From contig JAJDYR010000018.1 of NCBI GenBank assembly GCA_022825065.1, forward strand, positions 33,606-97,605: a stretch of 64,000 bases of DNA, in the 5' to 3' direction. The position numbers and the translations under genes were made by a program. Shown here piece by piece: positions 3,130 to 61,762 of the stretch (positions are counted from its first letter, which is position 1; every line of letters starts with the position of its first letter). Under the pieces are notes generated by a model, which made no database searches, had not been told where the DNA came from, and saw only the letters and a list, made by a program, of their open reading frames with translations. The stretch comes from a bacterium. Its GTDB lineage: Bacteria > UBA8248.

Positions 3130-4662
3130 TCAGACGGGCATCTGTCTGTCCAGTTGGCGGTACTGAACCGCCTCCGCCACATGCTGGGGGGAGATGTCTC
3201 TTTCCCCGGCCAGATCGCTGATGGTCCGCGCCACTTTCAGCACGCGGTGGTAAGCGCGCGCCGATAGACCCAGTTTCTCCACCGCCAGCTTGAGCAGGCG
3301 TCTTCCCTCGGCTTCGAGCTTGCAGTGCTCGTTGATGAGAGCGGGCCCCATGTGGGCGTTGGCGTAGGTGCCCGGGTGGTTCTGAAAGCGCTCTTTCTGG
3401 ATTTTCTGCGCTGAGAGAACGCGGTTTCTTATCGTCGCGGAACTCTCGCCCTCGGGGTCTTCGGCGAGTTCTTTCCACGGCACCCTGGGTACGCTGATGT
3501 GGATGTCGATGCGATCGAGGATCGGCCCCGAGATGCGCGAGCGGTACCGGGCCACCTGTTTGGGCGTGCAGGTGCATGCGCCGTCCGTTCGCAGGCCGCA
3601 TACGCACGGGTTCATCGCGGCGGTGAGCATGAACCGGGCCGGAAACGAGAGGCTCGCCTGCGCTCTGCTGATGGTGATCTTCCCGTCCTCGAGCGGACCA
3701 CGCAGGGATTCGAGCACGTTTTTCCGGAACTCGGGCAGTTCATCGAGGAACAACACGCCGTTGTGCGCGAGCGAGGCCTCGCCGGGCAGCGGGAGCGCGC
3801 CTCCGCCCACAAGGCCTGCGTCGCTGATGGTGTGGTGCGGGGCGCGGAAGGGTCGTTCCCGGATCAGGGAATCATGTTTCGTGAGTTTGCCGAGCACGCT
3901 CCACACCTGGCTGGTCTCGATGGCCTCATCGAGAGAGAGCGGAGGCAGTATGGTGGGGAATCTTTTCGCCAGCATGCTTTTTCCGCTGCCGGGAGGGCCT
4001 ATCATTAAAAGATTGTGCGAGCCCGCGGCCGCGACCTCGACGGCGCGTTTGGCCTGGTGCTGTCCCCGGATGTCCGAGAAATTGATTCTTTCGACCTTTT
4101 TTTTCTCTATGCCGTTTTTCTGGCAACACGCCGGGTGGATGTCGATTTCCTCCCGGATGAAACCCACCACCTGGGGAAGCGTGTGTACAGGATAGACCTC
4201 TAGCTTATCGACCACGGCGGCCTCGGGTGCGTTCTCCGCCGGAAGGACGAGGCCGCGCTTGCCCATCTTCTTGGCGAGAACGGCGATGTTGAGCGCTCCC
4301 CGGATGGGCCGCAAAGAACCATCCAGCGCCAGTTCACCCAGAAACAGGAGAGAATCCTCCATTTGAGAGCGTGAGTGAAATACGCCGTTCGCGCGCAGTA
4401 TCGAGAGCGCAATGGGCAAATCGAAGGCGCTGCCCTCCTTGCGGACGTCCGCCGGTGAGAGGCTGACGGTGATGCGCCCCATCGGGTAGATGAAGCCCGT
4501 GTTGAGGATGGCTGCACGAATCCTGTCCTTGCTCTCCTTAACGGCGGCGTCGGGCAAACCGACGGTGGCGTAATAGGGGAGACCCGGCGCGAGGTCGACC
4601 TCCACGTCGACGGGGTAGGCGTCTACGCCCAGTACGGCTGCTGCTTGGGTTTTGGCAAGCAT
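3130..4662 (-). CDS. comM: YifB/ComM-family Mg-chelatase-like AAA+ ATPase
   Basis: Walker A motif GPPGSGKS, Mg-chelatase ChlI-like core and C-terminal domain. Likely start is MLAKTQAA at 4662; the track ORF extends to 4695. Confidence 0.85.
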   Translation of the reverse strand: MLAKTQAAAVLGVDAYPVDVEVDLAPGLPYYATVGLPDAAVKESKDRIRAAILNTGFIYPMGRITVSLSPADVRKEGSAFDLPIALSILRANGVFHSRSQMEDSLLFLGELALDGSLRPIRGALNIAVLAKKMGKRGLVLPAENAPEAAVVDKLEVYPVHTLPQVVGFIREEIDIHPACCQKNGIEKKKVERINFSDIRGQHQAKRAVEVAAAGSHNLLMIGPPGSGKSMLAKRFPTILPPLSLDEAIETSQVWSVLGKLTKHDSLIRERPFRAPHHTISDAGLVGGGALPLPGEASLAHNGVLFLDELPEFRKNVLESLRGPLEDGKITISRAQASLSFPARFMLTAAMNPCVCGLRTDGACTCTPKQVARYRSRISGPILDRIDIHISVPRVPWKELAEDPEGESSATIRNRVLSAQKIQKERFQNHPGTYANAHMGPALINEHCKLEAEGRRLLKLAVEKLGLSARAYHRVLKVARTISDLAGERDISPQHVAEAVQYRQLDRQMPV

Positions 4663-4864
4663 GGCAATTCTCCGGGTTGTCTCGTGGAGTAGCAAAGATA
4701 AAGCGAAATATATAACGAAAATATAACGAAATCAACCCCGAATCGGCAATGTTTATGAAATTCTACTTTTAATTCCGGAATTCCGCCGGGAGTGTTTTCG
4801 ATAGGGAAGGGGGGAAGTGAGGGTTTTTAAGTTCGATAATTGCGTCGGCGATGACAGGCGCGGC

Positions 4865-6076
4865 TTATTTCCTGGAAACTTCGGAGCCTGCAGCCATAAC
4901 GACCTTCGATTCGATGAGTGCGTGAATTTGCTCATCCCCATAAAGAAGAAGATCACGGAGGATCGCCTCGGTGTCACCCCCGTGAAGGGGAGCTGGCTCG
5001 GGGTCGGGGTTTCCGCTTCCCGATCGGTTCAAAATGGGGTTGCCCACGATTTTTACCGTTCCGACTTCGGGGTATTCATATTCGCGGATGAGGCGCCTCG
5101 CCTCGACCTGCTCGTTGTCAAGCGCGCGATCGAGCGGGTTCACCGGTGCGGAGGGCACCCCCGCCGCCTCGAAGAGCTCAATCCACTCCTCGCCCGGGCG
5201 AGTCATCAGAATCTCTTCCATGATGGGGAGAAGGACGTCTCTGTTCTCGGAGCGCAGGTCGTTTGTCTTAAAGCGCGGGTCATCCGCCAGTTCATCCATT
5301 CCCATGACCTCGCACATTTTTTTCCAGAAGCGCTCCTCGCGGGGTGAGAGCACAATGTAGATCGTTGCCGTCGGGAATGCCTGGTAGGGCACCATGTACT
5401 CATGGGCGTTGCCGGGCGGCTCCGGTATGTCGCCGTTGTTGAGATACATGGTCGAGATATAGCCGAGCATGGCGAGTTGAACGTCGAACATCGGTACTTC
5501 AAGGTGCGCTCCGCTTCTTCCTTTCGCCTTGGCCAGCAGGCCCGCCATACAGGCGATGGCGGTATAGAGGGCGGTGGAGATATCCGCCGTGGGCGATCCG
5601 TTTCTGGCGGGCGGGCGGTTCGGCTCTCCTGTGATGGCCATGTGGCCGCTTACGGCCTGCTCCACCAGATCGAAGGCGGGTTTATCGCGCCAGGGGCCTT
5701 GTTCCCCGTATCCGCTCGAATCGATAAACACGATATCGGGGTTCCTCTGCTTCATGACGTCGTATCCAAGACCCAGCCGCTTCATCGTGCCGGGCCGGAA
5801 GTTCACCATTACGGCGTCTGATTTCTCCACCAGGTCCAAAAACACTTCCTTGCCCTCGGGTTTTTTCAGGTCGATGACGATGCCCTTCTTTCCCCGGTTG
5901 AAGGTGAGAAAGATGCTTGAAACGGGACCGATGCCCGCGATGGCGGGGTTGCGCCCGATATCGCCTTGTGGAGATTCGACCTTGATGACCTCGGCCCCCA
6001 TGTCGGCGAGGATCATGCTGCCGATGGTTCCGGCGATGACCTGTCCGAGATCGAGGATGCGGTAGCCTGCCAGCAT
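4865..6076 (-). CDS. CoA-transferase family III (CaiB/BaiF-like)
   Basis: MLAGYRILDLGQVIAGTIGSMILADMGAEVIKVE N-terminus is typical of family III CoA-transferases. Start chosen at ATG 6076. Confidence 0.85.
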   Translation of the reverse strand: MLAGYRILDLGQVIAGTIGSMILADMGAEVIKVESPQGDIGRNPAIAGIGPVSSIFLTFNRGKKGIVIDLKKPEGKEVFLDLVEKSDAVMVNFRPGTMKRLGLGYDVMKQRNPDIVFIDSSGYGEQGPWRDKPAFDLVEQAVSGHMAITGEPNRPPARNGSPTADISTALYTAIACMAGLLAKAKGRSGAHLEVPMFDVQLAMLGYISTMYLNNGDIPEPPGNAHEYMVPYQAFPTATIYIVLSPREERFWKKMCEVMGMDELADDPRFKTNDLRSENRDVLLPIMEEILMTRPGEEWIELFEAAGVPSAPVNPLDRALDNEQVEARRLIREYEYPEVGTVKIVGNPILNRSGSGNPDPEPAPLHGGDTEAILRDLLLYGDEQIHALIESKVVMAAGSEVSRK

Positions 6077-13320: not shown

Positions 13321-13539
13321 ATGGTGATGCGGATACGGTTGGATTGGATGGGGCGATTATAGCCCAGGCGGGGTGTTTCGTATACGGCGAGCGGTTGCGG
13401 TGGGGCGGGGCAGGGGGGCCGCCCGGCCCGTGGAAGCCGCGGGCGCAAATGCGGGCAAATGCGGGGAGATGCGCGGGAGGCGAAAAACTTTTTTTGGCCT
13501 GAATCTTAGTGCGGGGCGCTCAGGTTTTTATGATAACTA

Positions 13540-13640
13540 TTTATTTTACAATCGGTTACAAGTGAATAAATTTTCAGAAATTTATCGAAAAACACCGTGA
13601 ATTTATCGAATTTTACCGGAAATATCATTATTTTTATTAC
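13540..13640. repeat. AT-rich conserved ~90-bp module (caatcggtta...gaaatttatcgRaaaac..cgtgaatttatcg...), copy 1; flanked by AAATGCGGG iterons at 13443-13475 and 13905-13930
   Basis: Direct comparison with 61588-61680 shows shared caatcggtta, gaaatttatcg, cgtgaatttatcg and ttattttt blocks. ATGCGGG/TTGCGGG direct repeats lie nearby at both loci. Confidence 0.5.
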
Positions 13641-13967
13641 TGCCGTTATCCTGGAGTCCATGAGCGCGACTCCCCGGCGGGAAAAAGCCCCCCTGAGGAG
13701 GTCAAACGCGAGCGGGGAACGGGTGTCGAACGCGACTGGTGAAGGAGCGATCGAAGATTTTCCGGAAGGGTTCGCCGCCCTCACTCCCGCTCCATCGCCG
13801 CATCCCATGAGAAAGCCTCTTCTTCCTGCGCACCGGTCCGCCGGGGAAAACCCCTTCCCCGCGTCGCGCGCACGATACCGCAGTCCGCTGTTTCGGGAGT
13901 GACGGCAATTGCGGGGAAATGCGGGTTGATTTCGAGAGGGCGGGGTTGTTGAAAAATTTCATCAAAG

Positions 13968-14092
13968 GAGCAACCCCCCCTACCCCCCCTTGTCAGGGGG
14001 GTATAAAAAGGCAATGCGCCCCTGCCGGGCTGAGGGGGTTTTGATTTTTCTTGCCCCCCTGACAAGGGGGGGTAGGGGGGGTTGGTTTTCGA
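13968..14092. repeat. MITE-like inverted-repeat element, copy A
   Basis: Left arm AACCCCCCCTACCCCCCCTTGTCAGGGGGG and right arm CCCCCCTGACAAGGGGGGGTAGGGGGGGTT are reverse complements flanking a ~50-bp spacer (tataaaaaggc..gcgcc..gggctgagggggttttgatttttcttg). Confidence 0.8.
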
Positions 14093-14276
14093 GTCGAGTG
14101 GGGACGACCGTAGCGGACAGCCCCCGCGCCGCATGTGCAAGTTCGATTGCGCACCCCGCGGCGGGGAAGCTATGATGCAGCCGCCATCGCGCGCATCCGC
14201 ACACTCACTGTTTTCCGGAAGCGGTTCGGGGTTTTCCTGAAACAGCCCGCCGGATTGTTGAAATTCCACCTTCTAC

Positions 14277-15197
14277 ATGGAGAAAAAAATGGAAAAAAGA
14301 ACACTCGGACGCACGGGTCTCGAAGTCACTGTCATCGGCTTCGGCGCCATGACCATCGGCGGCGTCTTCGGCCCGGTGGACGACGGCGAGTCCAACCGCG
14401 CCCTGCACGCGGCCATCGATTCGGGCATGAACTTCATCGACACCTCAGACGCCTACGGCGCGGGCCACAGCGAGACCGTCATCGGCAAGTTCCTGAACGA
14501 ACGCGCCGACCGCGGCGACATCCTCATCTTCACCAAGGGCGGGAACGACATGTCGACGGGCGCGCGCAATTTCACGCCCGAGTACATCGCGGGCTGCCTG
14601 GAGGGGAGCCTGAAGCGCCTGGGGATGGACGTCATCGACTACTACCAGCTCCACAACCCCAACGTCGACAACATGGCGGCCGAGGACAGCTACGCGCTGC
14701 TGGAGAAAGCCAAGGACGACGGGAAGATCAAACACTGGGGCGTTTCGATCAACACGGTGGAGGAGTGCAACCTCGCCGCGGAGCAGAACAAGCCCTCCAC
14801 CATGCAGATGGAGTACAACGTCATCAGCCAGGAGGCGGCGCCCGCCTTCGCCCGCGCGAAAGCGGCGGACGTCGGCGTCATCTCCCGCGTGCCGCTCAAG
14901 CGGGGCTTTCTCTCCGGCCGCATCGACGAGGCGTTCGAGTTCGCCGAAGGCGACCGCAGAAAGGGCATCCTCTCGCCCGAGAACATCCGCAAGTTCCAGA
15001 CCCAGCTCGCCCGCACCCGCGAGGTGGCGGAGAATCTCGGAATTTCGGCGGCCCAGGCGGCCATCCGCTTCTGCGTCTCGAACGAGAACGTGAGCTGCGT
15101 GATTCCGGGCATCCGGACGCCCGAGCAATCCCGGCAGAACGCCGAATGCGGCGAATCCCTGCCCGCCGAGGCCGTGAGGAGGCTGCAGGAGGTATAG
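14277..15197 (+). CDS. Aldo/keto reductase
   Basis: 306 aa with AKR signatures (LGRTGLEVTVIGFGAM, IDTSDAYG, IPGIRTPEQ). Confidence 0.85.
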   Translation: MEKKMEKRTLGRTGLEVTVIGFGAMTIGGVFGPVDDGESNRALHAAIDSGMNFIDTSDAYGAGHSETVIGKFLNERADRGDILIFTKGGNDMSTGARNFTPEYIAGCLEGSLKRLGMDVIDYYQLHNPNVDNMAAEDSYALLEKAKDDGKIKHWGVSINTVEECNLAAEQNKPSTMQMEYNVISQEAAPAFARAKAADVGVISRVPLKRGFLSGRIDEAFEFAEGDRRKGILSPENIRKFQTQLARTREVAENLGISAAQAAIRFCVSNENVSCVIPGIRTPEQSRQNAECGESLPAEAVRRLQEV

Positions 15198-15278: not shown

Positions 15279-15339
15279 GGGTGAAGGACAACCACGGGGG
15301 TTCGGAGGGAATCACGTTTCACTCGCTCTCCCTCGGCTT

Positions 15340-15532
15340 GAAAACCAACCCCCCCTACCCCCCCTTGACAGGGGGGTATAAAAAGGCGATGTGCCCTCGC
15401 TGGGTTGAGGGGGTTTTGCTTTTTCTCGCCCCCCCAGCACCACCATACTTGAATCATCGCGCCATTTTAGCTGAGGGGGGTTTGATTTTTCTTGCCCCCC
15501 TGTCAAGGGGGGGTAGGGGGGGTTGCCTTTAT
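15340..15532. repeat. MITE-like inverted-repeat element, copy B (with internal partial duplication)
   Basis: Same terminal inverted repeats as copy A, including the gaaaaccaacc left flank and ggttgcctttatc right flank. The spacer contains a duplicated gggttgagggggttttgc segment. Confidence 0.8.
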
Positions 15533-15587
15533 CTCCTGAGGAGGAGGAGTGAATTTCTTCTGCTGAGTCGCGGTTGAGCTTTGCCCT

Positions 15588-15801: not shown

Positions 15802-16203
15802 ATGCCGGTGACGAATTGGGACGAACTGCCCGTGAAGGTGCCGTTCCCGGGGGTGGAAGTGGGCCTCGTGAGCGGGAAGCACTGCATGATCAGCTACATC
15901 CACGCGAAAGGCGGGAACTCCACCCGCAGGCACCACCACGAGGCGGAGCAGATTTTCTGCCTCATCAGCGGCTCCGCCCGCGTGCAGGCGGGCGACGACC
16001 CGGTGGCGGTGCTGAAGCCGGGCGACGTCTGGTACGTGCCGCCGCACACCGAGCACCAGGCGGACTACCTCGAAGACACGGTGGCCTTCGAGGCCGCAGG
16101 CCCCATCCGCCTGGACAATTTCGCGGGCTACCTGCACGAGGACACGCATTTCGTGGATCAAAGAGACCTCGCGGCGGACATGGAGCGGGAACAGGCCGGG
16201 TAG
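15802..16203 (+). CDS. Cupin-domain protein
   Basis: 133 aa with the cupin two-His motif region (HHHEAEQIFCLISG ... PGDVWYVPPHTEH). Last ~10 codons plus the stop (AADMEREQAG*) are shared with the Rieske gene's 3' end. Confidence 0.7.
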   Translation: MPVTNWDELPVKVPFPGVEVGLVSGKHCMISYIHAKGGNSTRRHHHEAEQIFCLISGSARVQAGDDPVAVLKPGDVWYVPPHTEHQADYLEDTVAFEAAGPIRLDNFAGYLHEDTHFVDQRDLAADMEREQAG

Positions 16204-16239
16204 GGGGTAAGTGCTAAACTGGCACGGGAAATAGGTTTT

Positions 16240-16412
16240 GTAGGGGTCAGACATATATGTCTGACTGCGTGTCCGCCCTTTGGGGTCACATATCTTGTCA
16301 TCTCGTAGTATGGCGGAGAGATAAAACCGGGCGGACACGCAGGTCCGCCCCTACGGTTTCGTTTCAATGTGCGCCTTTCTCGTAGGGACAGGCCCCTGTG
16401 CCTGTCCGGGGT
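16240..16412. repeat. Cluster of REP-like palindromic units with GTAGGG heads
   Basis: Units: gtaggggtcagacatatatgtctgac; gggcggacacgcaggtccgcccctac; gtagggacaggcccctgtgcctgtccgggg. Related units occur at 19293-19448, 23058-23176, 23901-24016, 34341-34373 and 40485-40658. Confidence 0.65.
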
Positions 16413-16569
16413 CTGCGACCCCGGACCGTTCTCATGAACGGTCTCTACGGATAACCGCAATTCCTTGTTCATCACTAACGTTTGACCACGCTTGACGAAG
16501 CGCGCGGCGCCTCGCTAGATTCAAGGCGAACGCCAGAGGACCCACTACACTTTGGTGGGAGAAAAACGA

Positions 16570-16992
16570 ATGACGGAATTCGAAACCGCAACCCTCGCAA
16601 TCCAGCAAGCCACCCTCGCGGCGCAGCAGGCCTCCGTTTGGGTCGCCGCTCTCGTCGGGGCCGCGCAGTGCTCCCTGATCGCGTATGGCCTCTACTTCAT
16701 GCGCCAGGCCGCGCGTCACCGGGATGCCCAGCACCGCGAAACCATGGAGGCGATGGATCGCAGTCACCGCGAATCCATGGAGGTGATGGATCGCCGGCAT
16801 CGCGAATCCATGGAGGTGATTGAAGGCCGGCACCGCGAACACATGGAGGGGATTGACAGCCGGCACCGCGAACACATGGCGGCGCTGGCCGTCCAGCGCG
16901 AGGCGGAAAAAGATCGGCACCGCGAATCCATGGCGGCGCTTGCAGACCAGAGCGAGGCGCTCAGGGAACTCATACGGCGCACCTCACAATAG
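16570..16992 (+). CDS. Membrane-anchored protein with tandem 11-residue repeats (HRESMEVMDRR-type), unknown function
   Basis: Hydrophobic segment VWVAALVGAAQCSLIAYGLYFMRQAAR, then at least 6 tandem 11-aa repeats (DAQHRETMEAM / DRSHRESMEVM / DRRHRESMEVI / EGRHREHMEGI / DSRHREHMAAL ...). A paralog with the same architecture sits at 63584-64000. Confidence 0.55.
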   Translation: MTEFETATLAIQQATLAAQQASVWVAALVGAAQCSLIAYGLYFMRQAARHRDAQHRETMEAMDRSHRESMEVMDRRHRESMEVIEGRHREHMEGIDSRHREHMAALAVQREAEKDRHRESMAALADQSEALRELIRRTSQ

Positions 16993-17194
16993 CATTCGCA
17001 CGAGAATCGGACGTTTCACGAGGTAGAGCGGCCATAGAGAGCCGCCCTGCTGCAGGTTCGTTTCGAAACGCGGGAGATGCGCAGCCGGACAGGGCAGGGG
17101 CCGCATTCATGAATCAATCGACGTTGACTCGCCGGTAAGTGAATTTGAATTTGGAGGGACAGATCGCGACCTGTCCCTACCCCTCTCTCGGCTT

Positions 17195-17330
17195 GAAAAC
17201 CAACCCCCCCTACCCCCCCTTGTCAGGGGGGCAAGAAAAAGCAAACCCCTCTCAGCATGGCGGGGACGCATCGCCTTTTTATACCCCCCTGTTAAGGGGG
17301 GGTAGGGGGGGTTGCCTTTATCCCCTGAGG
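17195..17330. repeat. MITE-like inverted-repeat element, copy C (spacer in opposite orientation)
   Basis: Same terminal inverted repeats. The spacer is the reverse complement of copy A's spacer. Confidence 0.8.
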
Positions 17331-17424
17331 ACTCGCTCTTGCCGGGGAGTTGTTCCGCCGGTAGGGTGGTGCGGACGTTCGGGGACGAACGAGGCGGCGA
17401 AGCCTCCCCGCGCGGAATGGAGGG

Positions 17425-19284
17425 ATGATGATGGAACGCAAGCCGGAATCCCGCCGCAAGTTGATAAAGGCGGGCGATTTCATTCGTGTCGGCGCACTGG
17501 ATGAGCTCAAGCGCGAGCGCATGAAAGTGGTGAGCGGCCGGCGCCATCCCATCCTCGTGGTGTATGAGGGGGGCCGCGTTCACGCGCTCGACAACCGCTG
17601 TCCCCATCTCGGCTTCCCGCTCCACCGGGGGTCGGTGGAGAACGGCATCCTCACCTGCCACTGGCATCACGCCCGCTTCGATCTCGAGAGCGGCTGCACC
17701 TTCGATCTGTGGGCCGACGACGTGCCGAGGGCCAGGGTCGAGGTGCGGGGCGATGCGGTCTGGGTCGCGGCCGATTGCAGTTATCCCGACGAGGGCGACT
17801 ACTGGCGCACGCGGCTCGGCGACGCCATGGCGCACGACCTGGACCTGGTGTCCGGGAAGGCGGTGCTCGGCCTGCTCGATCGATCCGTTGCAAGCGCCGA
17901 TATCCTCGCCGACGCCTTCCTGTTCGGCGCGCGGAACCGCGACGACTGGAGCGCCGGTTCCACGATTCTGGCCGCGCTGGCGAACGTGCTGCCGGCCCTC
18001 GATGAGGACGACCGCTATCTCGCGCTGTTCAAGGGCATCTCCGAGGTGGCCGGCGACTGCGCCGGCGAGATGCCGCGCCGCGACCGCAAGCCCCTGGCCG
18101 ATGCCGCGCCGTCGCGGGACACCATGCGGGGCTGGCTCCGGCACTGGTCCCTGGTGCGCCACCGCGACGGCGCGGAGCGCACCGTGCTCACCGCGATCGC
18201 CGCCGGCGCGACGCCCGCGGAACTCGCCGAACTCCTGGTCACCGCACAGACCGATCGCTACTACGCCGATCGCGGCCACAGCCTCGATTTCATCAACAAG
18301 GCGATGGAGTGCCTCGACGCCATCGGCTGGCGGCACGCCGGGGCCATCCTGCCCACGGTGGTCAAGACCATGGTGGCGGCGCGCGGCGAGGAGGAGGCGA
18401 ACGCCTGGCGCCACCCGCTCGATCTGGTGCCCCTCCTGGAGGCGGCCTTCGCCGAATTGCCTGAGCTTTTCAGGAAGGGGGGAGAGGCGAAGGGCGTCTG
18501 GCGGGATCACCGCGCGCTGGCCGGGGCCATCCTCGGCGAGGAGGCCGGGCCCATCATCGCCGCCTTGGGCGCCGCAGTCGCCGCCGGCGCCCGGCCGACG
18601 GACCTCTCCCGCGCGCTCGCCTATGCGGCGGCGATCCGCGTGGCGCGATTCGGCGCCTCGAACGAGTTTTCCGACTGGAACGCGGCGCTTCACGCCTTCA
18701 CCTACGCCAACGCGTTGCATCAGGCTCTGAAGCGCATCACCGCGGCGGGGGAGGCGCCGCCCGAGGCCCAGGCCAACGTGGTGCGCGGCGTGTTCCACGG
18801 CGCCATGGCGGTCTATACGAACCGCTTTCTCAACGTGCCCCCGGCCCGGCTGCCGGAGGAGGAGCCTGCGGCGCTGGCCCGGCTCCCCGGGGACGCGGCG
18901 GCGCTCCGCCAGGGCCTGCTCGATACGATGGACCGCCAGCAGCAGGTCCAGCCGGCGGCGCGGCTGGTCGCCCGGTATTTGGACCAGGGCCACGACCCCG
19001 CAGGCATCATCGCGACGCTCGGCCATGCGCTCCTGCGCGAGGACGCGAGCTTTCACATGTTCCAGATGTACGAGGCGGGCGTGCAGCAGTACCGCGAGTG
19101 GGCGGGTGAGCCCGAAGGCGGCCACATTCTGATCGCCGTGGCCCGCTTTCTCGCCGCGCATTCCCCGACCCAGCGCGCCCGCCACCAGACCGCGACCATC
19201 GCCCGCCGGCTGCATCGCGGGGAGAGCGTGCATGAGGGAGAGGGCGGGGACGCGGCGGACATGGAAAGAGAGCAGGCCGGGTAG
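17425..19284 (+). CDS. Rieske [2Fe-2S] domain protein with large C-terminal all-alpha domain of unknown function
   Basis: CPHLGFPLHRG...(17 aa)...CHWHHARF is the Rieske CxH-x17-CxxH motif. The gene is ~72% GC, clearly higher than its neighbours. The antisense ORF 17107..19380 (-) is judged spurious. Confidence 0.7.
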   Translation: MMMERKPESRRKLIKAGDFIRVGALDELKRERMKVVSGRRHPILVVYEGGRVHALDNRCPHLGFPLHRGSVENGILTCHWHHARFDLESGCTFDLWADDVPRARVEVRGDAVWVAADCSYPDEGDYWRTRLGDAMAHDLDLVSGKAVLGLLDRSVASADILADAFLFGARNRDDWSAGSTILAALANVLPALDEDDRYLALFKGISEVAGDCAGEMPRRDRKPLADAAPSRDTMRGWLRHWSLVRHRDGAERTVLTAIAAGATPAELAELLVTAQTDRYYADRGHSLDFINKAMECLDAIGWRHAGAILPTVVKTMVAARGEEEANAWRHPLDLVPLLEAAFAELPELFRKGGEAKGVWRDHRALAGAILGEEAGPIIAALGAAVAAGARPTDLSRALAYAAAIRVARFGASNEFSDWNAALHAFTYANALHQALKRITAAGEAPPEAQANVVRGVFHGAMAVYTNRFLNVPPARLPEEEPAALARLPGDAAALRQGLLDTMDRQQQVQPAARLVARYLDQGHDPAGIIATLGHALLREDASFHMFQMYEAGVQQYREWAGEPEGGHILIAVARFLAAHSPTQRARHQTATIARRLHRGESVHEGEGGDAADMEREQAG

Positions 19285-19292
19285 GGCAGACC

Positions 19293-19448
19293 GTAGGGAC
19301 AGGCCTCCGTGCCTGTCCGGGGCCGTGTATCCGTGTATTGAATCGATTGCAGAGGGGGACCCATAGGGCAGGGCGGCCACGGAGGGCCGCCCCTACGGGT
19401 TCGTTGTGATTTTGCGGTTTGTAGGGACAGGTCGCGACCTGTCCGGGG
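19293..19448. repeat. Composite REP-like cluster
   Basis: Units: gtagggacaggcctccgtgcctgtccgggg; agggcagggcggccacggagggccgcccctac; gtagggacaggtcgcgacctgtccgggg. Same composite architecture as the clusters flanking hicBA. Confidence 0.65.
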
Positions 19449-19464
19449 TTCGGCGTGTCCGCTG

Positions 19465-19600
19465 GATTGGTCGGAAAACCAACCCCCCCTACCCCCCCTT
19501 GTCAGGGGGGTATAAAAAGGCGATACGCCCCCGCAGGGTTGAGGGGGTTTTGCTTTTTCTTGCCCCCCTGTTAAGGGGGGGTAGGGGGGGTTGGTTTTCA
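19465..19600. repeat. MITE-like inverted-repeat element, copy D
   Basis: Terminal inverted repeats with GAAAACCAACCCCCCC / GGGGGGGTTGGTTTTC extensions. Confidence 0.8.
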
Positions 19601-19942
19601 AGGCGGGGAGGCGAGCGCGTCCGGTCAAGAAAAAAAGGGCCGACACCCCTCGAAGGGCTGCTTTCAGGGGTTGTTGAAAAACCCCCGAGTGTGGGAACTG
19701 CTGCGACACATTCCCCGAGGTGCAGGCCGAGTCGGGGTGTCGGCTGCTTTCATGAAACGCGAACAGGGGCTGCCCGTTGTTCCCGTTCCCGGCTCGAGGA
19801 CTCAAACTCACAGCAAGGAGCGGTACAGTTTGCTCTATCACGAGGGAAGCAACCAACGGGCAACCCCCTTTTCGCTCTTTCCTTCATCTCGCCTTGGACC
19901 CCGGGGCTAGAGCCCCGAGGCCGAAGGCATTCTGCTCTTCTT

Positions 19943-22498
19943 CTATTCCTTCATGTAGCGCGTGCCGAATGCGCCGGCTACTGCGCCATTAGAGAAATTC
20001 GAGTTGAACTCACCCACCAGAACTGGGGGCGGTGCTACACCAGTTCCAACAGCCTCACCATCACCGGAGAATGTCCCCGACCAAGTGGACGTATCAGATG
20101 CCATGCCCTTTGATGTTCCGGTAATGCTGGCAGAACTAAGAACACCAGATGCGGTCGCCATGGTTACTTCCCACTCGTTGGCCTCTCCGCCTGATAGTTC
20201 AAAGTCCGAAATTGTCCCATGCACGGAATTGTGTTTGTCTGCGGCCACGGAAGTCTCTGCCCCGAAATAAGCCGTAAGGGCTACGTCCGCCGTGAACGTT
20301 CCTGCAGACCTGGCATCAAGAGAATTATCTGGATTCACGGTGTTGTAAACGTATACTCCGTGAGCGCCACCTTCATATTTCGCGCTTCCAGCTACAACAC
20401 TTCCTATATTCGTATTAGCGTCAAGACTTGAACCAGCGAAAGTCTGAACGGCATCGTAGGTGGTTTTGCCATCCTTGACGGTTTTCATGAGCCAGAAGCC
20501 ATAGTGCAGGTAATCATCATCCGCTACGGATACCATGGCCCCTGCGTCTGGCTTGAACTGCCATTCGCCCGTAATAGTGGTTATTTTCCCGTCCGCGTCG
20601 GTGACTGCCGTACAAGCGGCATTCACACATTCGAATGTTCCAGCCGCACCATCAAAAGTTCCCCTAAACTCACCTTCATTTCTATTTTCGGTTGTAGTGT
20701 CATCAGCAGGCAAGTTTGTGGTAGTAGTAGGCGCACTTGATATTCTGCTGGAAGCTACCTTGCCCACATCCGCCGTTTCGTCCAATTCATATGTGGTGCG
20801 TTGGTCACCAGTCCTCTCTGGGTCAGCGTCTCCCACCGTAAGAGTATACACAGAACTAAACGGCTCTGATTCAGGCGCCTCAATATCTGTCATGACACTT
20901 ACTATTTCTGAAACTCCTTTTCCGTTATCACGGACATACTTACCGTCCATCATCACGAACTTGGGGTCATTTTTCAGTGGCAAGGCAGGGTCCGTAACTT
21001 CTACCGATACAGAACCACTTTTATGAGAAATCTTCAGGGTATATTGATCGGCGGCATCAGTATCATCGAATGCCGGCGAGGTGGCGTCAGGCGTGGCGGT
21101 TGATTCAGCCGTTATGGCATCCGCTTTAGTCTTGACCATTTCATTCATAGCCTTTTTCGCAGCCGCCGCTTCCTCCATTTCTTCTTCTTCACGCCTCTTT
21201 TCTTCAGCTACTCTATCGGCCTCTTCCTTGGCGGCTACAACCATTCCGGCGAAACGCTCAACCGCAGCTTTTGCGGTCTCGGCTTTAGCCTGGGCGGCTT
21301 CCGCGTCAGCCGATGTAGTGGCGGCCGCGGCTTCATCGTTCGCGGCTTTCGCGTCCGCGACGGCATCTTCCGCCCGCGCGTAAGAGGCTTCGTCAGCAGC
21401 TTTCTGCTCATCCGTGAGGGCCGCAAGCGCCGCCTTCGCGTCCATGTACGCCTGCATGGCGGCCCCCTGCGCGGTCGAGAGCGCGGTCGCTTCCATGTGC
21501 GCGACCGTCACCATGCTAGCGTATTTCCTGGCATCGGCCAGCGCGCTTTCGGCGGCCATCTGGGCGGCTTCCGCATCCGCCGCTGTTTCGGCATTTTCCG
21601 CCCTTACTTTCGCGGCAAGCGCGTCCTCGAGAGCTCTCATGGCTATGTTGTAAGAAACGGAGTCGGCATCGCCTTGGCCCGCGATTGCATCCAGTGCAGC
21701 CTGCGCGGCATTAGCGGCCACTTCCGCGGCACCACGAGCGACTCTTATAGCGGACATTTCGGCCGCCAGATTGTCGGCAGCCGTTTTCGCGTCCGCTACC
21801 ATGTCGGCGTATCTCTGGACATCTGCGAGCGCGGCTTCCACGTCCGCCTGGGCAGCCTTCGCGGCTTCCGATGTGGTTGCCGCGTTCGCCATTGCGAGTG
21901 CTTCTTGAGCGGCCTCGTTCGCGACCTTGGCTCTCACGTATGAGTCGATGTCATGGGCTTTATTCGCCTCTGCGTCCGCCAATAAACTGGCCGCCATATC
22001 GGCCGCAGTCTTTGCGGCTTGCTTGGCGGTATCGAGCGCCATGGCTTCTTGCTGCCGATCCATTTCTGCCTGATCGGCCGCGGTCTTCGCGTCCGCTACC
22101 ATGCCGGCATACTTTTCAGCATCCGCTTGGGCCGCTTCTGCTTTCGCCTGCTCCGCCTTCGCAGCTTCCGATGTGGTTGCGGCTGCGGCCGCGTCACTCG
22201 CGGCTTTCGCGGCCGTGAGAGCGATTCGGGCTGCAGCATATGAGTCTGGATCGACACTCGCATCCGCCATCACGCCATCGACCGCCGTCATGGCAGCCGT
22301 ATACGCCGCCTTGGCGGCATTCTGCGCGGCTTCGAGAGCGGCGGCCTCGGCCGCGATCTCCTCATCCGTCGGGCCGGTCATCGGCGGTTCTGCCGTTCCG
22401 CTACCTCCGCCGCCGCCGCAGCCCGCCAGCGTCAGCGCGAACACGGCCGCCAGCGCGAAAGCGTAGAACTTGTGAATATACTTGTGTTTGAACTTCAT
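19943..22498 (-). CDS. Surface lipoprotein with Ala-rich internally repeated coiled-coil region and TbpB-like C-terminal beta-barrel domain
   Basis: Lipobox LTLAGC after the signal peptide. ~4 internal repeats of ~100 aa (TTSEAAKA..EKYAGMVADAKTAAD), also visible as DNA repeats at ~21700-21850 and ~22020-22160. C-terminal 300 aa is Gly/Ser/Thr-rich and ends ...GEFNSNFSNGAVAGAFGTRYMKE, like TbpB/fHbp-type handle-barrel lipoprotein C-termini. The 3' third of the gene is ~50% GC against ~65% locally. Confidence 0.75.
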   Translation of the reverse strand: MKFKHKYIHKFYAFALAAVFALTLAGCGGGGGSGTAEPPMTGPTDEEIAAEAAALEAAQNAAKAAYTAAMTAVDGVMADASVDPDSYAAARIALTAAKAASDAAAAATTSEAAKAEQAKAEAAQADAEKYAGMVADAKTAADQAEMDRQQEAMALDTAKQAAKTAADMAASLLADAEANKAHDIDSYVRAKVANEAAQEALAMANAATTSEAAKAAQADVEAALADVQRYADMVADAKTAADNLAAEMSAIRVARGAAEVAANAAQAALDAIAGQGDADSVSYNIAMRALEDALAAKVRAENAETAADAEAAQMAAESALADARKYASMVTVAHMEATALSTAQGAAMQAYMDAKAALAALTDEQKAADEASYARAEDAVADAKAANDEAAAATTSADAEAAQAKAETAKAAVERFAGMVVAAKEEADRVAEEKRREEEEMEEAAAAKKAMNEMVKTKADAITAESTATPDATSPAFDDTDAADQYTLKISHKSGSVSVEVTDPALPLKNDPKFVMMDGKYVRDNGKGVSEIVSVMTDIEAPESEPFSSVYTLTVGDADPERTGDQRTTYELDETADVGKVASSRISSAPTTTTNLPADDTTTENRNEGEFRGTFDGAAGTFECVNAACTAVTDADGKITTITGEWQFKPDAGAMVSVADDDYLHYGFWLMKTVKDGKTTYDAVQTFAGSSLDANTNIGSVVAGSAKYEGGAHGVYVYNTVNPDNSLDARSAGTFTADVALTAYFGAETSVAADKHNSVHGTISDFELSGGEANEWEVTMATASGVLSSASITGTSKGMASDTSTWSGTFSGDGEAVGTGVAPPPVLVGEFNSNFSNGAVAGAFGTRYMKE

Positions 22499-23040
22499 TT
22501 AGTGAGTCCTCCTGAATACATAGAAAAAGGGATTTTCAGTGAATTTCCGGCTTTCTCCGATTAACCTCCTTTCCTTCTCGATATACGGGCCTTCACAAAC
22601 TGGTCATTCGTATTTCGGGCCGCCCGGAGGACGGCGGACTTGCGGCCTCATCGTCCGGGCTGGTATGAACTCTTTCCGCGACACACGAATTCCTGAGGTA
22701 TGCGCGCACCTTTCTTTGGTCTCCTAAGGCGAGCGGTCTGCCCGCCGCTAATTGTCGTTACGGGACGCCGGAAGCCCCGTTCTCCGCCGGGAGAGCCGTT
22801 CCGGGGCGCGCGCGGGCCGCGAATGAGCGAAAAAAGACGGAAAACGGCGCCCGAAAACTCCTCCCGGGACCCCGGAATTGCGCTTGACATGGTTTTGAGA
22901 GGTGTTATATTGTCTGATAACGACAATTATCGGATATCAAGAAGCCATTTCGGTCATAACCGGCCGCCGCCGTCATGCCTGCGTCGGACATAGATGCGGA
23001 TGACGGCCCTTCATGTATCGCTGAACCCCGGCATGACGAT

Positions 23041-23200
23041 TGAAAGCCGCAGCCGCCGTAGGGGCCGTTCGTGAACGGCCCTTGTCGGAGAAGCGGGCGG
23101 TTCGCGAACCGCCCCTACGGGTTCGTTGCGATTTGCGTGGTTGTTGTAGGGACAGGCCTCCGTGCCTGTCCGGGGTCGCGACCTGTCCGAGGCCCCCGCG
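23041..23200. repeat. Composite REP-like cluster (left direct repeat flanking hicBA)
   Basis: gtaggggccgttcgtgaacggcccttgtcggagaagcgggcggttcgcgaaccgcccctacgggttcgttgcgatttgcgtggttgttgtagggacaggcctccgtgcctgtccgggg. Near-identical composite recurs at 23885-24030 in the same orientation. Confidence 0.7.
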
Positions 23201-23389
23201 CCTGTTCTTGCGATTCCGCAACCGCAGATGGCCGTCATTGTGATACACTCTGCCGCAGACGTGGATCGGCGGCTCCTGAATGATCGTCGTGTAGAGCCGC
23301 CGTATAAGTTCGGACGAACGCTTGAGGGCCGGGCCCTGGAGGTGAAGATTGCTGAATTTGCCCGATGTCGAGCGTAGGGAGGGGAACCC

Positions 23390-23593
23390 GTGAAACTCAA
23401 GGTAGTCGTTCACGAGGCGGAAGAAGGTGGATATTGGGCCGAGGTCCCGGCTGTTCCAGGGTGTGCGACGCAGGGAGATACGTTCGAGGAGTTGTTGAGC
23501 AATCTCTACGAGGCGGTCGAAGGGTGCCTCTCCGTGGACGTCCAGGAGGTGGACGTTTCGGGCGCGGGCAGGGTCGTCGAGATCGCCGTGTGA
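23390..23593 (+). CDS. hicB: Type II toxin-antitoxin system HicB-family antitoxin (UPF0150-like)
   Basis: MKLKVVVHEAEEGGYWAEVPAVPGCATQGDTFEELLSNLYEAVEGCL matches the HicB N-terminal RNase H-like domain pattern (V.EPEEGGY.V..P.LPGC.TQGDT.EEAL.N..EAIE). Confidence 0.8.
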   Translation: MKLKVVVHEAEEGGYWAEVPAVPGCATQGDTFEELLSNLYEAVEGCLSVDVQEVDVSGAGRVVEIAV

Positions 23594-23796
23594 AAATCGT
23601 CAGTGGAAAGCGCTTTTGCCGCATACTGGAAGCGAAGGGCTGGAAACTGGCGCGCACCCGCGGCAGTCACCGCATTTACGCGAAACGGGGTTCGGACATC
23701 CGCATCTCGGTGCCGGTGCATGGCGAAGCGTCGCTCAAACGCGGCTTGCAGAGGCATCTCATGAAGCTGGCGGATATCAAGGATTCCGAACTGTAG
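23590..23796 (+). CDS. hicA: Type II toxin-antitoxin system HicA-family mRNA interferase toxin
   Basis: GTG start overlaps the hicB stop (GTGA). VKIVSGKRFCRILEAKGWKLARTRGSHRIYAKRGSDIRISVPVHGEASLKRGLQRHLMKLADI matches the HicA/YcfA consensus (G.E..K.L...GW.L.R..GSH....). It is the C-terminal part of track ORF 23365..23796. Confidence 0.8.
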   Translation: MKIVSGKRFCRILEAKGWKLARTRGSHRIYAKRGSDIRISVPVHGEASLKRGLQRHLMKLADIKDSEL

Positions 23797-23884
23797 GCCA
23801 GGAGCAAGGACGACGCAATATATCCACCCTTATCGGCCCTGGCCAACCTGTTGGTTGTCACCGACATTCACCGGAATGACGAAC

Positions 23885-24030
23885 AAACGTCGCAGCCACC
23901 GTAGGGGCGGTTCGCGAACCGCCCTTGCCGGAGAAACGGGCGCTTCACGAAGCGCCCCTACGGGTTCGTTGCGATTTGCGTGGTTTCTGTAGGGACAGGT
24001 CGCGACCTGTCCAGGGTCTCTGCGCCTGTC
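23885..24030. repeat. Composite REP-like cluster (right direct repeat flanking hicBA)
   Basis: gtaggggcggttcgcgaaccgcccttgccggagaaacgggcgcttcacgaagcgcccctacgggttcgttgcgatttgcgtggtttctgtagggacaggtcgcgacctgtccaggg. Confidence 0.7.
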
Positions 24031-24044
24031 GAAGGGGACGCCCG

Positions 24045-24215: not shown

Positions 24216-24247
24216 CCCTTGTTAAGGGCGGCCACGGAGGGCCGCCC

Positions 24248-61580: not shown

Positions 61581-61587
61581 ATCAATC

Positions 61588-61680
61588 GGTTAATTTCCGT
61601 GAAATTTATCGGAAAACCTCGTGAATTTATCGGTATTTATCTTATTTTTCGGAATTGTCCGGTTGAAACCAAAGATGCGG
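61588..61680. repeat. AT-rich conserved ~90-bp module, copy 2; ATGCGGG/TTGCGGG motifs follow at 61672-61755
   Basis: caatcggttaatttccgtgaaatttatcggaaaacctcgtgaatttatcggtatttatcttattttt aligns block-wise with 13548-13640. Confidence 0.5.
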
Positions 61681-61762
61681 GAAGCGCCCCTTGCCCGCGC
61701 GCCCGGTATGTTGGTATACCTCTCCCCTGGGGAGACACGGGCGCGGCAATTGCGGGTTCATG

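What the first reader, a model, noticed from the sequence alone, without database searches (positions are those of the whole stretch)
13373..13960. Long non-coding region with AAATGCGGG iterons and an AT-rich module that recurs at 61588-61760
The ~590-bp gap between the M20 amidohydrolase and MITE A has no credible ORF. It contains three tandem (A/G)ATGCG(G)GG iterons (13443-13475), two more at 13905-13930, and a ~90-bp AT-rich block (13548-13640) whose sub-blocks (caatcggtta, gaaatttatcg, cgtgaatttatcg, ttattttt) reappear in the same order at 61588-61680. The second locus also has ATGCGGG and TTGCGGGTT motifs nearby. The paired modules suggest a shared regulator-binding or origin/partition-like element, or a small RNA.
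Basis: seen in the sequence. Interest (0 to 1): 0.5.

Follow-up and report, generated by a model that had tools for sequence, protein, structure and literature searches.

The report
Conserved interspersed AT-rich repeat element
The non-coding gap is one copy of a previously undescribed repeat found at 65 or more intergenic sites in a clade of sponge-associated Nitrospinota bacteria, and its strongly conserved AT-rich core looks like a docking site for a DNA-architectural protein rather than an RNA gene or a replication origin.

Summary
The 32-nt core GAAATTTATCGrAAAACnnCGTGAATTTATCG occurs at 13577-13608 and 61601-61632, with 0 matches expected by chance. The 10-bp "iterons" belong to the same unit.

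It is not a locus-specific regulator site. An exact-pattern scan found more than 113 copies, all in about 14 sponge-type Nitrospinota MAG species. They fall at 65 or more distinct intergenic loci, one copy per locus, often at orthologous positions.

Between orthologues the core stays about 90-100% identical. Sequence 31 nt or more away is at random-level identity, so the core is under purifying selection.

Anatomy:
- The core is a helically phased array (offsets 0, 21, 31, 41) of AATTTATCGA. This is the exact reverse complement of the E. coli H-NS high-affinity motif tCGATAAATT.
- The flanking modules consist of two GC-rich 10-bp direct repeats, exactly 29 nt, and a TAnnnT hexamer. Essentially all of them point inward toward a core.

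No ORF, Rfam family, stable RNA fold, plasmid match or phage match supports coding, sRNA or origin readings.

Best reading: a composite interspersed element acting at the DNA level as a bent docking site for a nucleoid-protein-like factor, bracketed by promoter-like modules. The nearest known kinds are BIME-1/RIP and Correia elements. The mechanism is inferred, not shown.

The parts
13446..13477 (+). Left cluster of three 10-bp GC-rich iterons (CAAATGCGGG, CAAATGCGGG, GAGATGCGCGGG), part of the 'class A' left arm
   Evidence: The same three-unit cluster lies at -132 to -112 from the core in 35 of 115 family copies.
13482..13496 (+). A5-C-T7 tract GAAAAACTTTTTTTG, a near-invariant block of the class A left arm
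   Evidence: Found at -98 from the core in class A copies, with very low column entropy.
13503..13525 (+). Imperfect palindrome ATCTTAG-N9-CTCAGGT (family consensus ATCTGAG..CTCAGAT)
   Evidence: The substitutions seen among copies are not compensatory, so it is read as a DNA-level motif and not as an RNA stem.
13529..13559 (+). AT-rich left-arm blocks: TATGATAAC (a -10-like TATGAT at 13529-13534) and ACAATCGGTTAC
   Evidence: These are conserved blocks at fixed distances (-50 and -37) from the core, with no indels in 25 aligned copies.
13579..13609 (+). Core: two perfect AATTTATCGA units (13579-13588 and 13600-13609) 21 bp apart, separated by AAAACACCGTG. Each unit is the exact reverse complement of the H-NS motif tCGATAAATT.
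   Evidence: motif confirmed in PMC2094087.
13610..13641 (+). Degenerate further units and the 'D1' block (ATTTTACCGG, AAATATCATTATTTTTATTAC; -10-like TATCAT at 13623-13628)
13657..13668 (+). Conserved block TCCATGAGCGCG, about 48 nt after the core
   Evidence: ORFs starting at this ATG are not conserved.
13669..13842 (.). Variable GC-rich spacer. It includes a small hairpin with a family-conserved loop (TCGAACGC-gactggtgaagga-GCGATCGA, 13726-13754) and the block CCATGAGAAAGCC (13805-13817).
   Evidence: The spacer is 80-550 nt long among copies and shows random-level identity between orthologues.
13843..13860 (.). GC hairpin GGGGAA-aacccc-TTCCCC next to the hexamer
   Evidence: Hairpins of differing sequence occupy this position in the different subfamilies, and support for them is modest.
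13872..13877 (-). -10-like hexamer TATCGT on the minus strand, pointing toward the core
   Evidence: It lies exactly 29 nt from the iteron pair.
13907..13926 (+). Right pair of 10-bp iterons (AATTGCGGGG, AAATGCGGGT), which form the outer boundary of the element
   Evidence: Sequence beyond the pair is unrelated among copies.
61584..61593 (+). Locus 2: remnant of the left arm (CAATCGGTTA), 4 nt after the rlmN stop codon (61578-61580)
61603..61653 (+). Locus 2 core and further units: AATTTATCGG at 61603-61612 and 61624-61633, then TATTTATCTT and ATTTTTCGGA
   Evidence: Orthologous copies exist in L029, L051 and L076.
61713..61756 (-). Locus 2 degenerate flanking module: hexamer TATACC (minus strand, 61713-61718), a 29-nt spacer, then the single iteron AATTGCGGG (61748-61756)
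   Evidence: L029 shows the same arrangement with two iterons.

Best explanation
The region 13446-13926 is one complete copy, and 61584-61756 a shorter copy, of a clade-specific composite interspersed element of sponge-associated Nitrospinota.

**Anatomy (shown).**
- The AT-rich core is a helically phased array of 10-bp AATTTATCGA units at offsets 0, 21, 31 and 41.
- A variable spacer follows the core.
- On one or both sides sits a flanking module made of two 10-bp GC-rich direct repeats, exactly 29 nt, and a TAnnnT hexamer that always faces the core.

**Mechanism (inferred).** The element works as DNA, not as protein or structured RNA.
- The core is an intrinsically bent, high-affinity docking or nucleation site for a DNA-architectural protein that recognises an H-NS-type motif.
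- The flanking modules are activator-dependent or weak promoters, or binding sites of a partner protein. They face inward, so the whole forms a self-contained nucleoprotein unit in intergenic DNA.
- This is functionally analogous to a binding site for a nucleoid-associated protein bracketed by inverted repeats, as in BIME-1/RIP or Correia elements.
- The copies arose by ancient dispersal. They are now inherited vertically and kept by selection.

**Sub-confidences.**
- Member of a dispersed, conserved repeat family: about 0.95.
- The conserved parts act at the DNA level: about 0.7.
- H-NS-like or nucleoid-protein docking specifically: about 0.35.
- The flanking hexamers are real promoters: about 0.4.
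For: **Family and distribution.**
All were in about 14 related MAG species.
- Viral contigs, plasmids and phages gave no match.
- The 115 copies form 65 syntenic groups, each with one copy per genome and up to 4 species per group.
- The orthologue of window locus 1 is L039, where the flanking genes are 82-86% identical. The orthologues of locus 2 are L029, L051 and L076.

**Selection.** In orthologous pairs the unconstrained 8 nt inside the core are 90% identical. Sequence from +31 to +350 is 52-55% identical, against 50% for random pairs.

**Phasing.**
- Units sit at offsets 0 and 21 in 103 of 103 copies, at 31 in 59 of 103, and at 40-41 in 27 of 103.
- A/T periodicity peaks at 10-10.5 bp, about 7 times the shuffled value.

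**Motif identity.** AATTTATCGA is the reverse complement of tCGATAAATT, the 10-bp H-NS high-affinity motif (PMC2094087). The window has two exact copies, both inside core 1.

**Flanking modules.**
- TAnnnT occurs at an offset of exactly 29 nt in 40 of 143 iteron pairs, against 0-7 at any other offset.
- 66 of 71 modules point to an exact-pattern core. Three of the other five point to diverged cores found by nhmmer.
- The hexamer matches TATAAT better when read inward (4.11 vs 3.20 matches, 65 of 71 modules, p=7e-14).

**Not coding.** ORF lengths are inconsistent among copies, and variability shows no codon periodicity (0.80/0.88/0.80).

**Not a known or stable RNA.**
Against: - No binding protein has been identified. 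A tblastn search with H-NS, Lsr2 and MvaT found nothing in the 0.87 Mb held, but that is a small, scattered sample and says little.
- H-NS homologues are not known to me in Nitrospinota.
- The spacer between the two units (AAAACCCCGTG) is also conserved. That fits a sequence-specific 21-bp iteron binder better than a generic minor-groove reader.
- The 10/10 motif match could be convergence on any AT-rich site with a TpA step.
- The flanking hexamers lack a -35 element at 17 nt. A canonical TTGACG-N17-TAGAAT promoter does exist in this clade.
- The nearest TTGCCG lies 25 nt away from the hexamer.
- No transcription data were available.
- Core conservation is partly an ascertainment effect, because the search pattern fixed 22 of the 30 positions.
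Confidence: 0.45

Rival explanations
1. A non-autonomous mobile element (MITE-like). The inverted pairs of 10-bp iterons are transposase-binding terminal repeats, the inward promoter-like hexamers are relics of a transposase promoter mirrored in both ends, and the family is selfish DNA with no host function.
For: - The family is multi-copy, strictly intergenic and mosaic in build.
- 14 copies are bounded by inverted 20-nt iteron pairs, giving units of 250-415 nt, and sequence similarity ends exactly at the outer iteron.
- Host intergenic regions are inflated, with a median of 881 nt against 148 nt.
- Other repeat families and mobile genes lie nearby.
Against: - No target-site duplication is visible.
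- Class A copies, including window locus 1, carry the left iterons in direct orientation, not inverted.
- The two arms of one element share only the iterons and the 29-nt spacing, not their sequence.
- No transposase-bearing copy was found among 69 modules.
- Copies sit at orthologous sites in up to 4 species, with no within-genome duplicates of a locus.
- Conservation is sharply block-wise, with neutral-level decay in between. This indicates selection on specific blocks and not recent copying.
Confidence: 0.2
2. A self-contained transcription unit. The inward-facing modules are real promoters that produce short convergent, largely unstructured sense and antisense RNAs across the core or spacer, and the RNAs or the act of convergent transcription are the function.
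For: - A -10-like hexamer lies at a fixed 29 nt from upstream phased direct repeats, in the position expected of an activator or UP-element site (-43 to -62).
- The hexamer has an inward strand preference.
- A GC-rich 'discriminator' follows the hexamer, and the downstream hairpins fold slightly better than shuffled sequence (-14.8 vs -13.1 kcal/mol, p=5e-5).
- The elements occur even between convergent genes, which implies autonomy from the flanking genes.
Against: - There is no -35 element at 17 nt.
- No terminator was found in either direction.
- Fold energy is not beyond that of shuffles.
- No consensus base pairs emerged.
- The RNA body is variable in length and unalignable.
- No expression data are available.
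Confidence: 0.15
3. An operator or promoter cassette through which one regulator controls the flanking genes. This is the reader's 'shared regulator-binding' reading: a regulon of genes next to the element.
For: - The conserved sites are phased and look like protein-binding sites.
- In locus 2 the element fills the whole 215-nt gap upstream of the ORF at 61796.
- The left iterons of locus 1 lie about 85 nt upstream of the conserved TATAAT of the M20 gene.
Against: - Orientation shows no bias toward downstream genes (43 gene starts vs 40 gene ends).
- 14 of 65 host regions lie between convergent gene ends.
- The distance to the next gene start is usually 250-1500 nt.
- The flanking modules point at the core, not at genes.
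Confidence: 0.1
4. A small protein gene on the reverse strand (for example a type I toxin-like peptide, MKIIIFPVKFDKFTGFFDKFLK...) read through the AT-rich core.
For: One reverse frame is open through the core and the class A left arm in many copies, often with an ATG in the D1 block.
Against: - Variation shows no third-position excess (0.80/0.88/0.80 upstream of the core; 0.85/0.86/1.04 in D1).
- The variants seen in the core spacer change first and second codon positions.
- ORF length and start are inconsistent, and no ATG-initiated ORF covers the core in 56 of 115 copies.
Confidence: 0.03
5. An iteron-type replication origin or partition site, or attL/attR-like direct repeats bounding a 48-kb island between the two window copies.
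For: It has superficial origin-like anatomy: iterons plus an AT-rich block. The two window copies are in direct orientation, 48 kb apart.
Against: - There are 65 or more loci.
- No rep, par or int genes flank either copy.
- There is no plasmid or phage similarity.
- There is no strand polarity.
- Each window copy has its own orthologues, with conserved synteny running across the supposed island boundaries.
Confidence: 0.02

Closest known systems
BIME-1 / RIB-RIP elements of E. coli: two inverted REP units flanking an IHF-binding site (from my own knowledge of the literature, not tested here)
   Same: - Extragenic and present at tens to hundreds of loci.
- Mosaic, built from a small set of modules.
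- A binding site for a DNA-bending nucleoid protein in the centre, with GC-rich repeats in inverted orientation on both sides.
- Found after gene ends and between convergent genes.
   Different: - The flanking repeats here are tandem 10-bp direct iterons, not 35-40-bp palindromic REP hairpins.
- The central site matches the H-NS motif, not the IHF consensus.
- There is a strictly spaced -10-like hexamer facing inward.
- The elements are 250-500 nt long.
- There is no sequence similarity to BIMEs, and no RAYT-type transposase was seen.
Correia repeat-enclosed elements (CREE/NEMIS) of Neisseria (own knowledge)
   Same: - Interspersed intergenic elements with inverted ends.
- A central site for an architectural protein (IHF).
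- Promoter-like boxes in the ends.
   Different: - Correia ends are 26-bp simple inverted repeats with a TA duplication, and their promoters read outward.
- Here no duplication is seen and the promoter-like hexamers read inward.
- The clade and the sequence are both different.
H-NS high-affinity nucleation sites, e.g. proU/proV in E. coli; 10-bp motif tCGATAAATT (Lang et al. 2007, PMC2094087, read)
   Same: - Exact 10/10 identity of the repeat unit to the motif (9/10 in locus 2).
- AT-rich context with further weaker copies interspersed.
- A central TpA step.
- Clustering of sites.
   Different: - The E. coli motif is a degenerate logo scattered in AT-rich genes.
- Here two perfect copies are kept at fixed 21-bp phasing, with a conserved spacer, at dozens of loci in a 61% GC genome of another phylum.
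- No H-NS-family protein is known in that phylum.
Iteron-type plasmid origins and the R1 parC centromere (own knowledge)
   Same: Tandem short direct repeats in helical phase, flanking or adjoining an AT-rich region or a promoter.
   Different: - There are dozens of chromosomal copies.
- There is no adjacent rep or par gene.
- There is no similarity to any plasmid record.
MITEs (miniature inverted-repeat transposable elements)
   Same: Small, non-coding, multi-copy and intergenic, with some copies bounded by inverted repeats.
   Different: - No target-site duplication and no identified parent transposon.
- Positions are stable across species.
- Conservation is block-wise, with the interior decayed to random.

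Membership tests
REP/BIME (bacterial interspersed mosaic elements) | Extragenic, multi-copy, mosaic combination of a few sequence modules | tested here: met
   Of 115 copies, crude ORF calls place only 4 inside a gene. There are at least 3 kinds of left arm, 3 kinds of block downstream of the core, and at least 5 flanking-module subfamilies.
REP/BIME (bacterial interspersed mosaic elements) | The basic unit is a 35-40-bp imperfect palindrome (REP/PU), usually in inverted pairs | tested here: not met
   The repeated units are 10-bp direct iterons and 10/21-bp AT-rich direct units. There is no conserved REP-type palindrome.
REP/BIME (bacterial interspersed mosaic elements) | Associated RAYT (REP-associated tyrosine transposase) in the genome | not testable with these tools
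   Only 8-kb pieces of the genomes are held.
MITE | Terminal inverted repeats at both ends | tested here: inconclusive
   14 copies have inverted 20-nt iteron pairs at both ends. The 35 class A copies, including window locus 1, have left iterons in direct orientation.
MITE | Target-site duplication flanking the element | tested here: not met
   The flanks of the 14 two-ended copies share no duplicated k-mer.
MITE | Presence/absence polymorphism, or a parent element with a transposase | tested here: inconclusive
   No transposase-bearing copy was found among 69 modules, and all sampled orthologous loci are occupied. The sampling was by presence of the core, so empty sites could not be seen.
H-NS-type nucleation site | Match to the 10-bp high-affinity motif tCGATAAATT with a central TpA step, in AT-rich DNA with additional weaker sites | tested here: met
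   There are two 10/10 matches at 13579-13588 and 13600-13609, and two 9/10 matches in locus 2. These are the only exact matches in the 64 kb. The motif was checked in PMC2094087, and further units lie at +31 and +41.
H-NS-type nucleation site | The host encodes an H-NS-family or analogous silencer (Lsr2, MvaT, Rok) that binds the site | not testable with these tools
Sigma-70-type promoter (flanking module) | -10 hexamer with conserved A2 and T6 | tested here: met
   TAnnnT lies at an offset of exactly 29 nt in 40 of 143 iteron pairs, and nAnnnT in 71. The mean match to TATAAT is 4.1 of 6 when read inward.
Sigma-70-type promoter (flanking module) | -35 hexamer 16-18 nt upstream of the -10 | tested here: not met
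   The expected position shows no conservation. The nearest TTGCCG is 25 nt away. A canonical TTGACG-N17-TAGAAT promoter does exist upstream of tRNA-Phe in this clade.
Sigma-70-type promoter (flanking module) | Transcripts start 6-8 nt downstream of the hexamer | not testable with these tools
   No RNA data are available.
Iteron plasmid origin / partition site | One or a few per replicon, next to a rep or par gene | tested here: not met
   There are 65 or more loci. The flanks are an M20 peptidase, AKR, RlmN and an unknown protein, and there is no plasmid match.
Known or structured small RNA | Match to a curated RNA family, or a conserved and stable secondary structure | tested here: not met
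   Rfam gave no match above gathering thresholds in the window or in 15 loci, and none with meaningful E-values. Fold z-scores are -0.95 and -0.56. RNAalifold found no consensus pairs.

The most novel reading that the evidence does not exclude
These bacteria maintain, by selection, a chromosome-wide set of roughly 50-150 'architectural islands'. Each is a bent array of perfect H-NS-type nucleation motifs bracketed by inward-facing, activator-dependent promoters. Together they would act as a new kind of built-in chromosomal organiser or insulator, through docking of a nucleoid-associated protein plus convergent RNA polymerase loading. This would be in a phylum where no H-NS-like system is known, implying an undiscovered silencer or architectural protein with H-NS-like specificity.
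Probability: 0.15. Interest if true: 0.8.

Novelty: new variant of a known kind. Interest (0 to 1): 0.55.

Why it matters
If the reading holds, this would be an interspersed repeat family in an uncultured symbiont clade whose conserved parts are demonstrably under selection. That is rare. For most REP, BIME or MITE-type repeats it is unclear whether they are functional or merely tolerated.

The exact, doubly repeated H-NS-type motif gives a concrete, testable handle:
- It predicts a DNA-architectural protein with H-NS-like specificity in Nitrospinota.
- It offers a defined 70-bp probe to fish that protein out.

The strict 'two iterons, 29 nt, -10 hexamer, always facing the core' rule is an unusual regulatory geometry that could be tested with reporter fusions.

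There is also a practical point. These elements, together with the other repeats around them, inflate intergenic regions about sixfold, which should be accounted for when annotating these MAGs.

Tried and rejected
- **Source contig look-ups.** Exact-protein look-ups for RlmN and the aldo/keto reductase found nothing on record.
- **tRNA/tmRNA and Rfam.** No tRNA or tmRNA gene in the window. Rfam gave nothing at gathering thresholds for the window and 15 loci, and nothing useful at permissive E-values for 13350-14300. The only hits were microRNA-model noise on the neighbouring MITE.
- **Forward-strand coding.** ORFs from the conserved ATG at 13661 are 2-101 aa among copies where a stop lies within the 700 nt read.
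- **Reverse-strand coding.** The open frame MKIIIFPVKFDKFTGFFDKF... shows no codon-position periodicity of variation.
- **Structured RNA.** Both strands of the window element fold no better than shuffles. RNAalifold on 15 flanking modules found no pairs. The imperfect palindrome at 13503-13525 varies in a non-compensatory way.
- **H-NS, Lsr2 or MvaT homologues in held DNA.** The only hit was a spurious match inside a molybdopterin dehydrogenase.
- **Sigma-54, IHF, DnaA-box and parS consensus.** I compared these by eye against the core and iterons. None fits, so I am not claiming any of them.
- **Plasmid, phage and viral-contig similarity.** None found.
- **Replication-strand polarity.** 57 vs 41, p=0.16.
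- **Orientation relative to genes.** No bias downstream, and all intergenic types are hosts.
- **Target-site duplications.** None seen.
- **Island bounded by the two window copies.** Rejected by synteny.
- **Literature.** Nothing on such repeats in sponge Nitrospinota.
- **Not used.** The metagenome scan and the large protein searches. I judged that they would not discriminate between the remaining hypotheses.
Full report
**1. Checking the observation**

The region is as described. It matches nowhere else in the window, and no match is expected by chance. The shorter blocks (caatcggtta, ttattttt) follow in the same order at both loci.

The GC-rich 10-bp units lie at 13447, 13457 and 13467 (the third is degenerate) and at 13907 and 13917, spaced 10 bp apart.

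One correction is needed. ATGCGGG and AWWTGCGGG are not over-represented in the window as a whole. Their significance comes from position and from conservation across the family described below.

The flanking genes are an M20 peptidase (minus strand, start at 13320), an aldo/keto reductase (14277), RlmN (stop at 61580) and an unknown 254-aa ORF (61796).

**2. It is a repeat family, not a two-copy curiosity**

I scanned one genome per prokaryotic species for AATTTATCG-N7-9-CGTGAATTTATCG. All lie in about 14 MAG species labelled Nitrospinota, or in unlabelled MAGs that are syntenic with those at 80-86% identity. Most are from sponge metagenome bins.

The same pattern is absent from 2.9 million viral contigs. 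The whole element has no blastn match in the plasmid or phage collections.

With the window included, the 115 copies fall into 65 syntenic groups. Each group holds a single copy per genome and up to four species. Window locus 1 has an orthologue in L039, between the same M20 and aldo/keto reductase genes. Locus 2 has orthologues after rlmN in L029, L051 and L076.

A profile search of the 0.87 Mb held found about five extra copies with one or two mismatches to the pattern, and few decayed ones. The exact pattern therefore under-counts the family.

**3. Anatomy**

*Core.* AATTTATCGA occurs at offsets 0 and 21 in every copy. Further units lie at +31 in 59 of 103 copies and at +40/41 in 27 of 103. 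A/T content shows a periodicity peak at 10-10.5 bp, seven-fold above shuffles. The core is thus an array of A/T tracts on one face of the helix, which is the classical signature of bent DNA and of cooperative protein binding.

*Right side.* After a spacer of 80-550 nt comes a module present in most copies. It consists of a hexamer, exactly 29 nt, and then two iterons (ACGGC-AAATGCGGGG-AAATGCGGGG). Similarity between copies stops beyond the second iteron.

*Left side.* There are three alternatives:
- Class A (35 copies, including window locus 1): three iterons in direct orientation, an A5CT7 tract, an imperfect palindrome and AT-rich blocks, all at fixed distances with no indels.
- Class B: a mirror image of the right module.
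- Class C: inverted iterons abutting the core.

Locus 2 is a shorter copy whose left arm is cut off by the end of rlmN.

**4. The flanking module**

Reading from the iterons inward, TAnnnT occurs at an offset of exactly 29 nt in 40 of 143 iteron pairs. Every other offset has 0-7 occurrences.

Of the 71 modules with nAnnnT at that position, 66 point toward an exact-pattern core within 700 nt. Of the other five, three point to the diverged cores found. One is an artefact inside a core, and one is a weak match with no core nearby.

The hexamer matches TATAAT better on the inward strand (4.11 vs 3.20 matches, 65 of 71, p=7e-14). It is followed by a GC-rich stretch and by hairpins. The hairpins differ in sequence between subfamilies and fold only slightly better than shuffles. 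RNAalifold found no consensus pairs.

There is no -35 element at 17 nt. The iterons would occupy about -43 to -62. A canonical TTGACG-N17-TAGAAT promoter upstream of tRNA-Phe shows that ordinary sigma-70 promoters exist in this clade.

So the modules are either activator-dependent or weak promoters, or binding sites of some other factor with a rigid geometry. Some cores carry such modules on both sides, giving a convergent arrangement. That arrangement also looks like 20-nt terminal inverted repeats, but no target duplication is present.

**5. Evidence for selection**

In orthologous pairs the 8 positions inside the core that my search pattern left free are 90% identical. The 30 nt on either side are 65-71% identical. 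Everything from +31 to +350 is 52-55% identical, indistinguishable from random pairs at 50%.

The alignment of the window with L039 shows the same block-wise pattern. The iterons, the A5CT7 tract, the core, TCCATGAGCGCG, the hexamer and the right iterons are kept, while the spacer is rearranged.

Neutral sequence between these species is saturated, so the conserved blocks are under purifying selection or are being continually homogenised.

**6. What it is not**

- *Not coding.* Forward ORFs are inconsistent among copies. The reverse frame that is open through the AT-rich part shows no third-position excess of variation.
- *Not a known or stably structured RNA*.
- *Not a gene-proximal operator in general.* Orientation is unbiased with respect to the downstream gene, and hosts include 14 convergent, 9 divergent and 42 tandem intergenic regions.
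- *Not an origin, partition site or island boundary.* This follows from copy number, the neighbouring genes, synteny and the lack of strand polarity.

**7. The H-NS lead**

I recalled that AATTTATCGA is the reverse complement of the E. coli H-NS high-affinity motif, and I checked this in the primary paper. Lang et al. 2007 derive "the 10 bp motif tCGATAAATT" with a central T-A step. They propose nucleation at such sites followed by spreading along AT-rich DNA (PMC2094087).

The window has two exact matches, both in core 1. Locus 2 has two 9/10 matches that differ only at the weakly specified first base.

This is a resemblance in how the site looks, not proof of what binds it:
- No H-NS, Lsr2 or MvaT homologue was found in the limited DNA held.
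- The spacer between the two units is itself conserved. That fits a specific binder of a 21-bp iteron at least as well as a generic minor-groove reader.

**8. Best explanation and its standing**

*Shown:*
- A clade-restricted family at 65 or more loci.
- Vertical inheritance at orthologous positions.
- Selection on defined blocks.
- A helically phased core.
- A strict geometry of the flanking modules, which face inward.

*Inferred:*
- The core is a bent docking or nucleation site for an architectural DNA-binding protein with H-NS-like specificity.
- The flanking modules are promoter-like or partner-protein sites.
- The whole is a self-contained nucleoprotein unit, functionally closest to BIME-1/RIP and Correia elements.

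*Rivals, in order of weight:*
- An old MITE-like selfish element.
- A convergent transcription unit.
- A regulon operator.
- A tiny peptide gene.
- An origin or att site.

**9. Novelty and score**

I found no description of this family in Rfam, in the plasmid, phage or viral collections, or in the searchable literature on sponge Nitrospinota.

It belongs to a known kind, the bacterial interspersed mosaic repeats. It has unusual features: exact H-NS-type motifs in fixed phase, iteron-built ends, a 29-nt spacing rule, and promoter-like hexamers facing inward. I therefore rate it a new variant of a known kind, with moderate interest at 0.55.

Noticed in passing
window 13960-14095, also about 15330-15540; L003, L007, L010, L044, L048, L089, L104, L108, L112: The neighbouring 'MITE A' (inverted arms C7TAC7..TTGTCAGGGGGG) is a separate repeat family. 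It has a second copy in the window and copies at 80-93% identity in many related genomes.
   Followed up: partly
window 13726-13754; L019, L088, L009, L039, L080 (sequences): This is a small hairpin family with variable, complementary stems and a conserved 13-nt loop GAC(C/T)G(A/G)nGAGGG(A). Examples are TCGAACGC-gactggtgaagga-GCGATCGA and GAGGTCGCTC-acgaccggggaga-GAGCGACCTC. It occurs inside the variable spacer or just outside the right iterons. The stem covariation suggests a structured single-stranded motif, and Rfam gave no match.
   Followed up: no
L006, L027, L048, L095, L065, L093, immediately after core unit 2: In these copies a different ~130-nt AT-rich block (…ccagaatatgaaaattaaattattgttttcaagccagttataaattcc…) replaces the usual sequence right after the core. 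Mobile-element genes lie nearby: a tyrosine recombinase in L048 (L006 carries the same downstream sequence but the contig ends before that point), an IS66-like transposase in L027, and a group II intron reverse transcriptase in L093. The core may serve as an integration site.
   Followed up: partly
window about 16200-24280, compared with L039 3746-3810: About 8 kb of the window is absent from the otherwise syntenic locus of a related species, which indicates an insertion or deletion.
   Followed up: no
L076 about 3411-5660, compared with window 61633-61678: In one species the orthologue of locus 2 carries about 2.4 kb of extra DNA between the core and the downstream gene.
   Followed up: no
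window 46000-64000: This stretch has lower GC (0.52-0.59, against 0.60-0.68 elsewhere) and lower third-codon-position GC in its ORFs. It may be an acquired region.
   Followed up: no
window 13340-13375 (minus strand); L039 750-790: The M20 gene has a conserved canonical -10 box (GGGCTATAATCG in the window, TATACT in L039), about 85 nt from the left iteron cluster.
   Followed up: partly
all loci held: Intergenic regions that host the element have a median length of 881 nt, against 148 nt for other intergenic regions in the same loci. Repeats strongly inflate the non-coding DNA of these genomes.
   Followed up: yes
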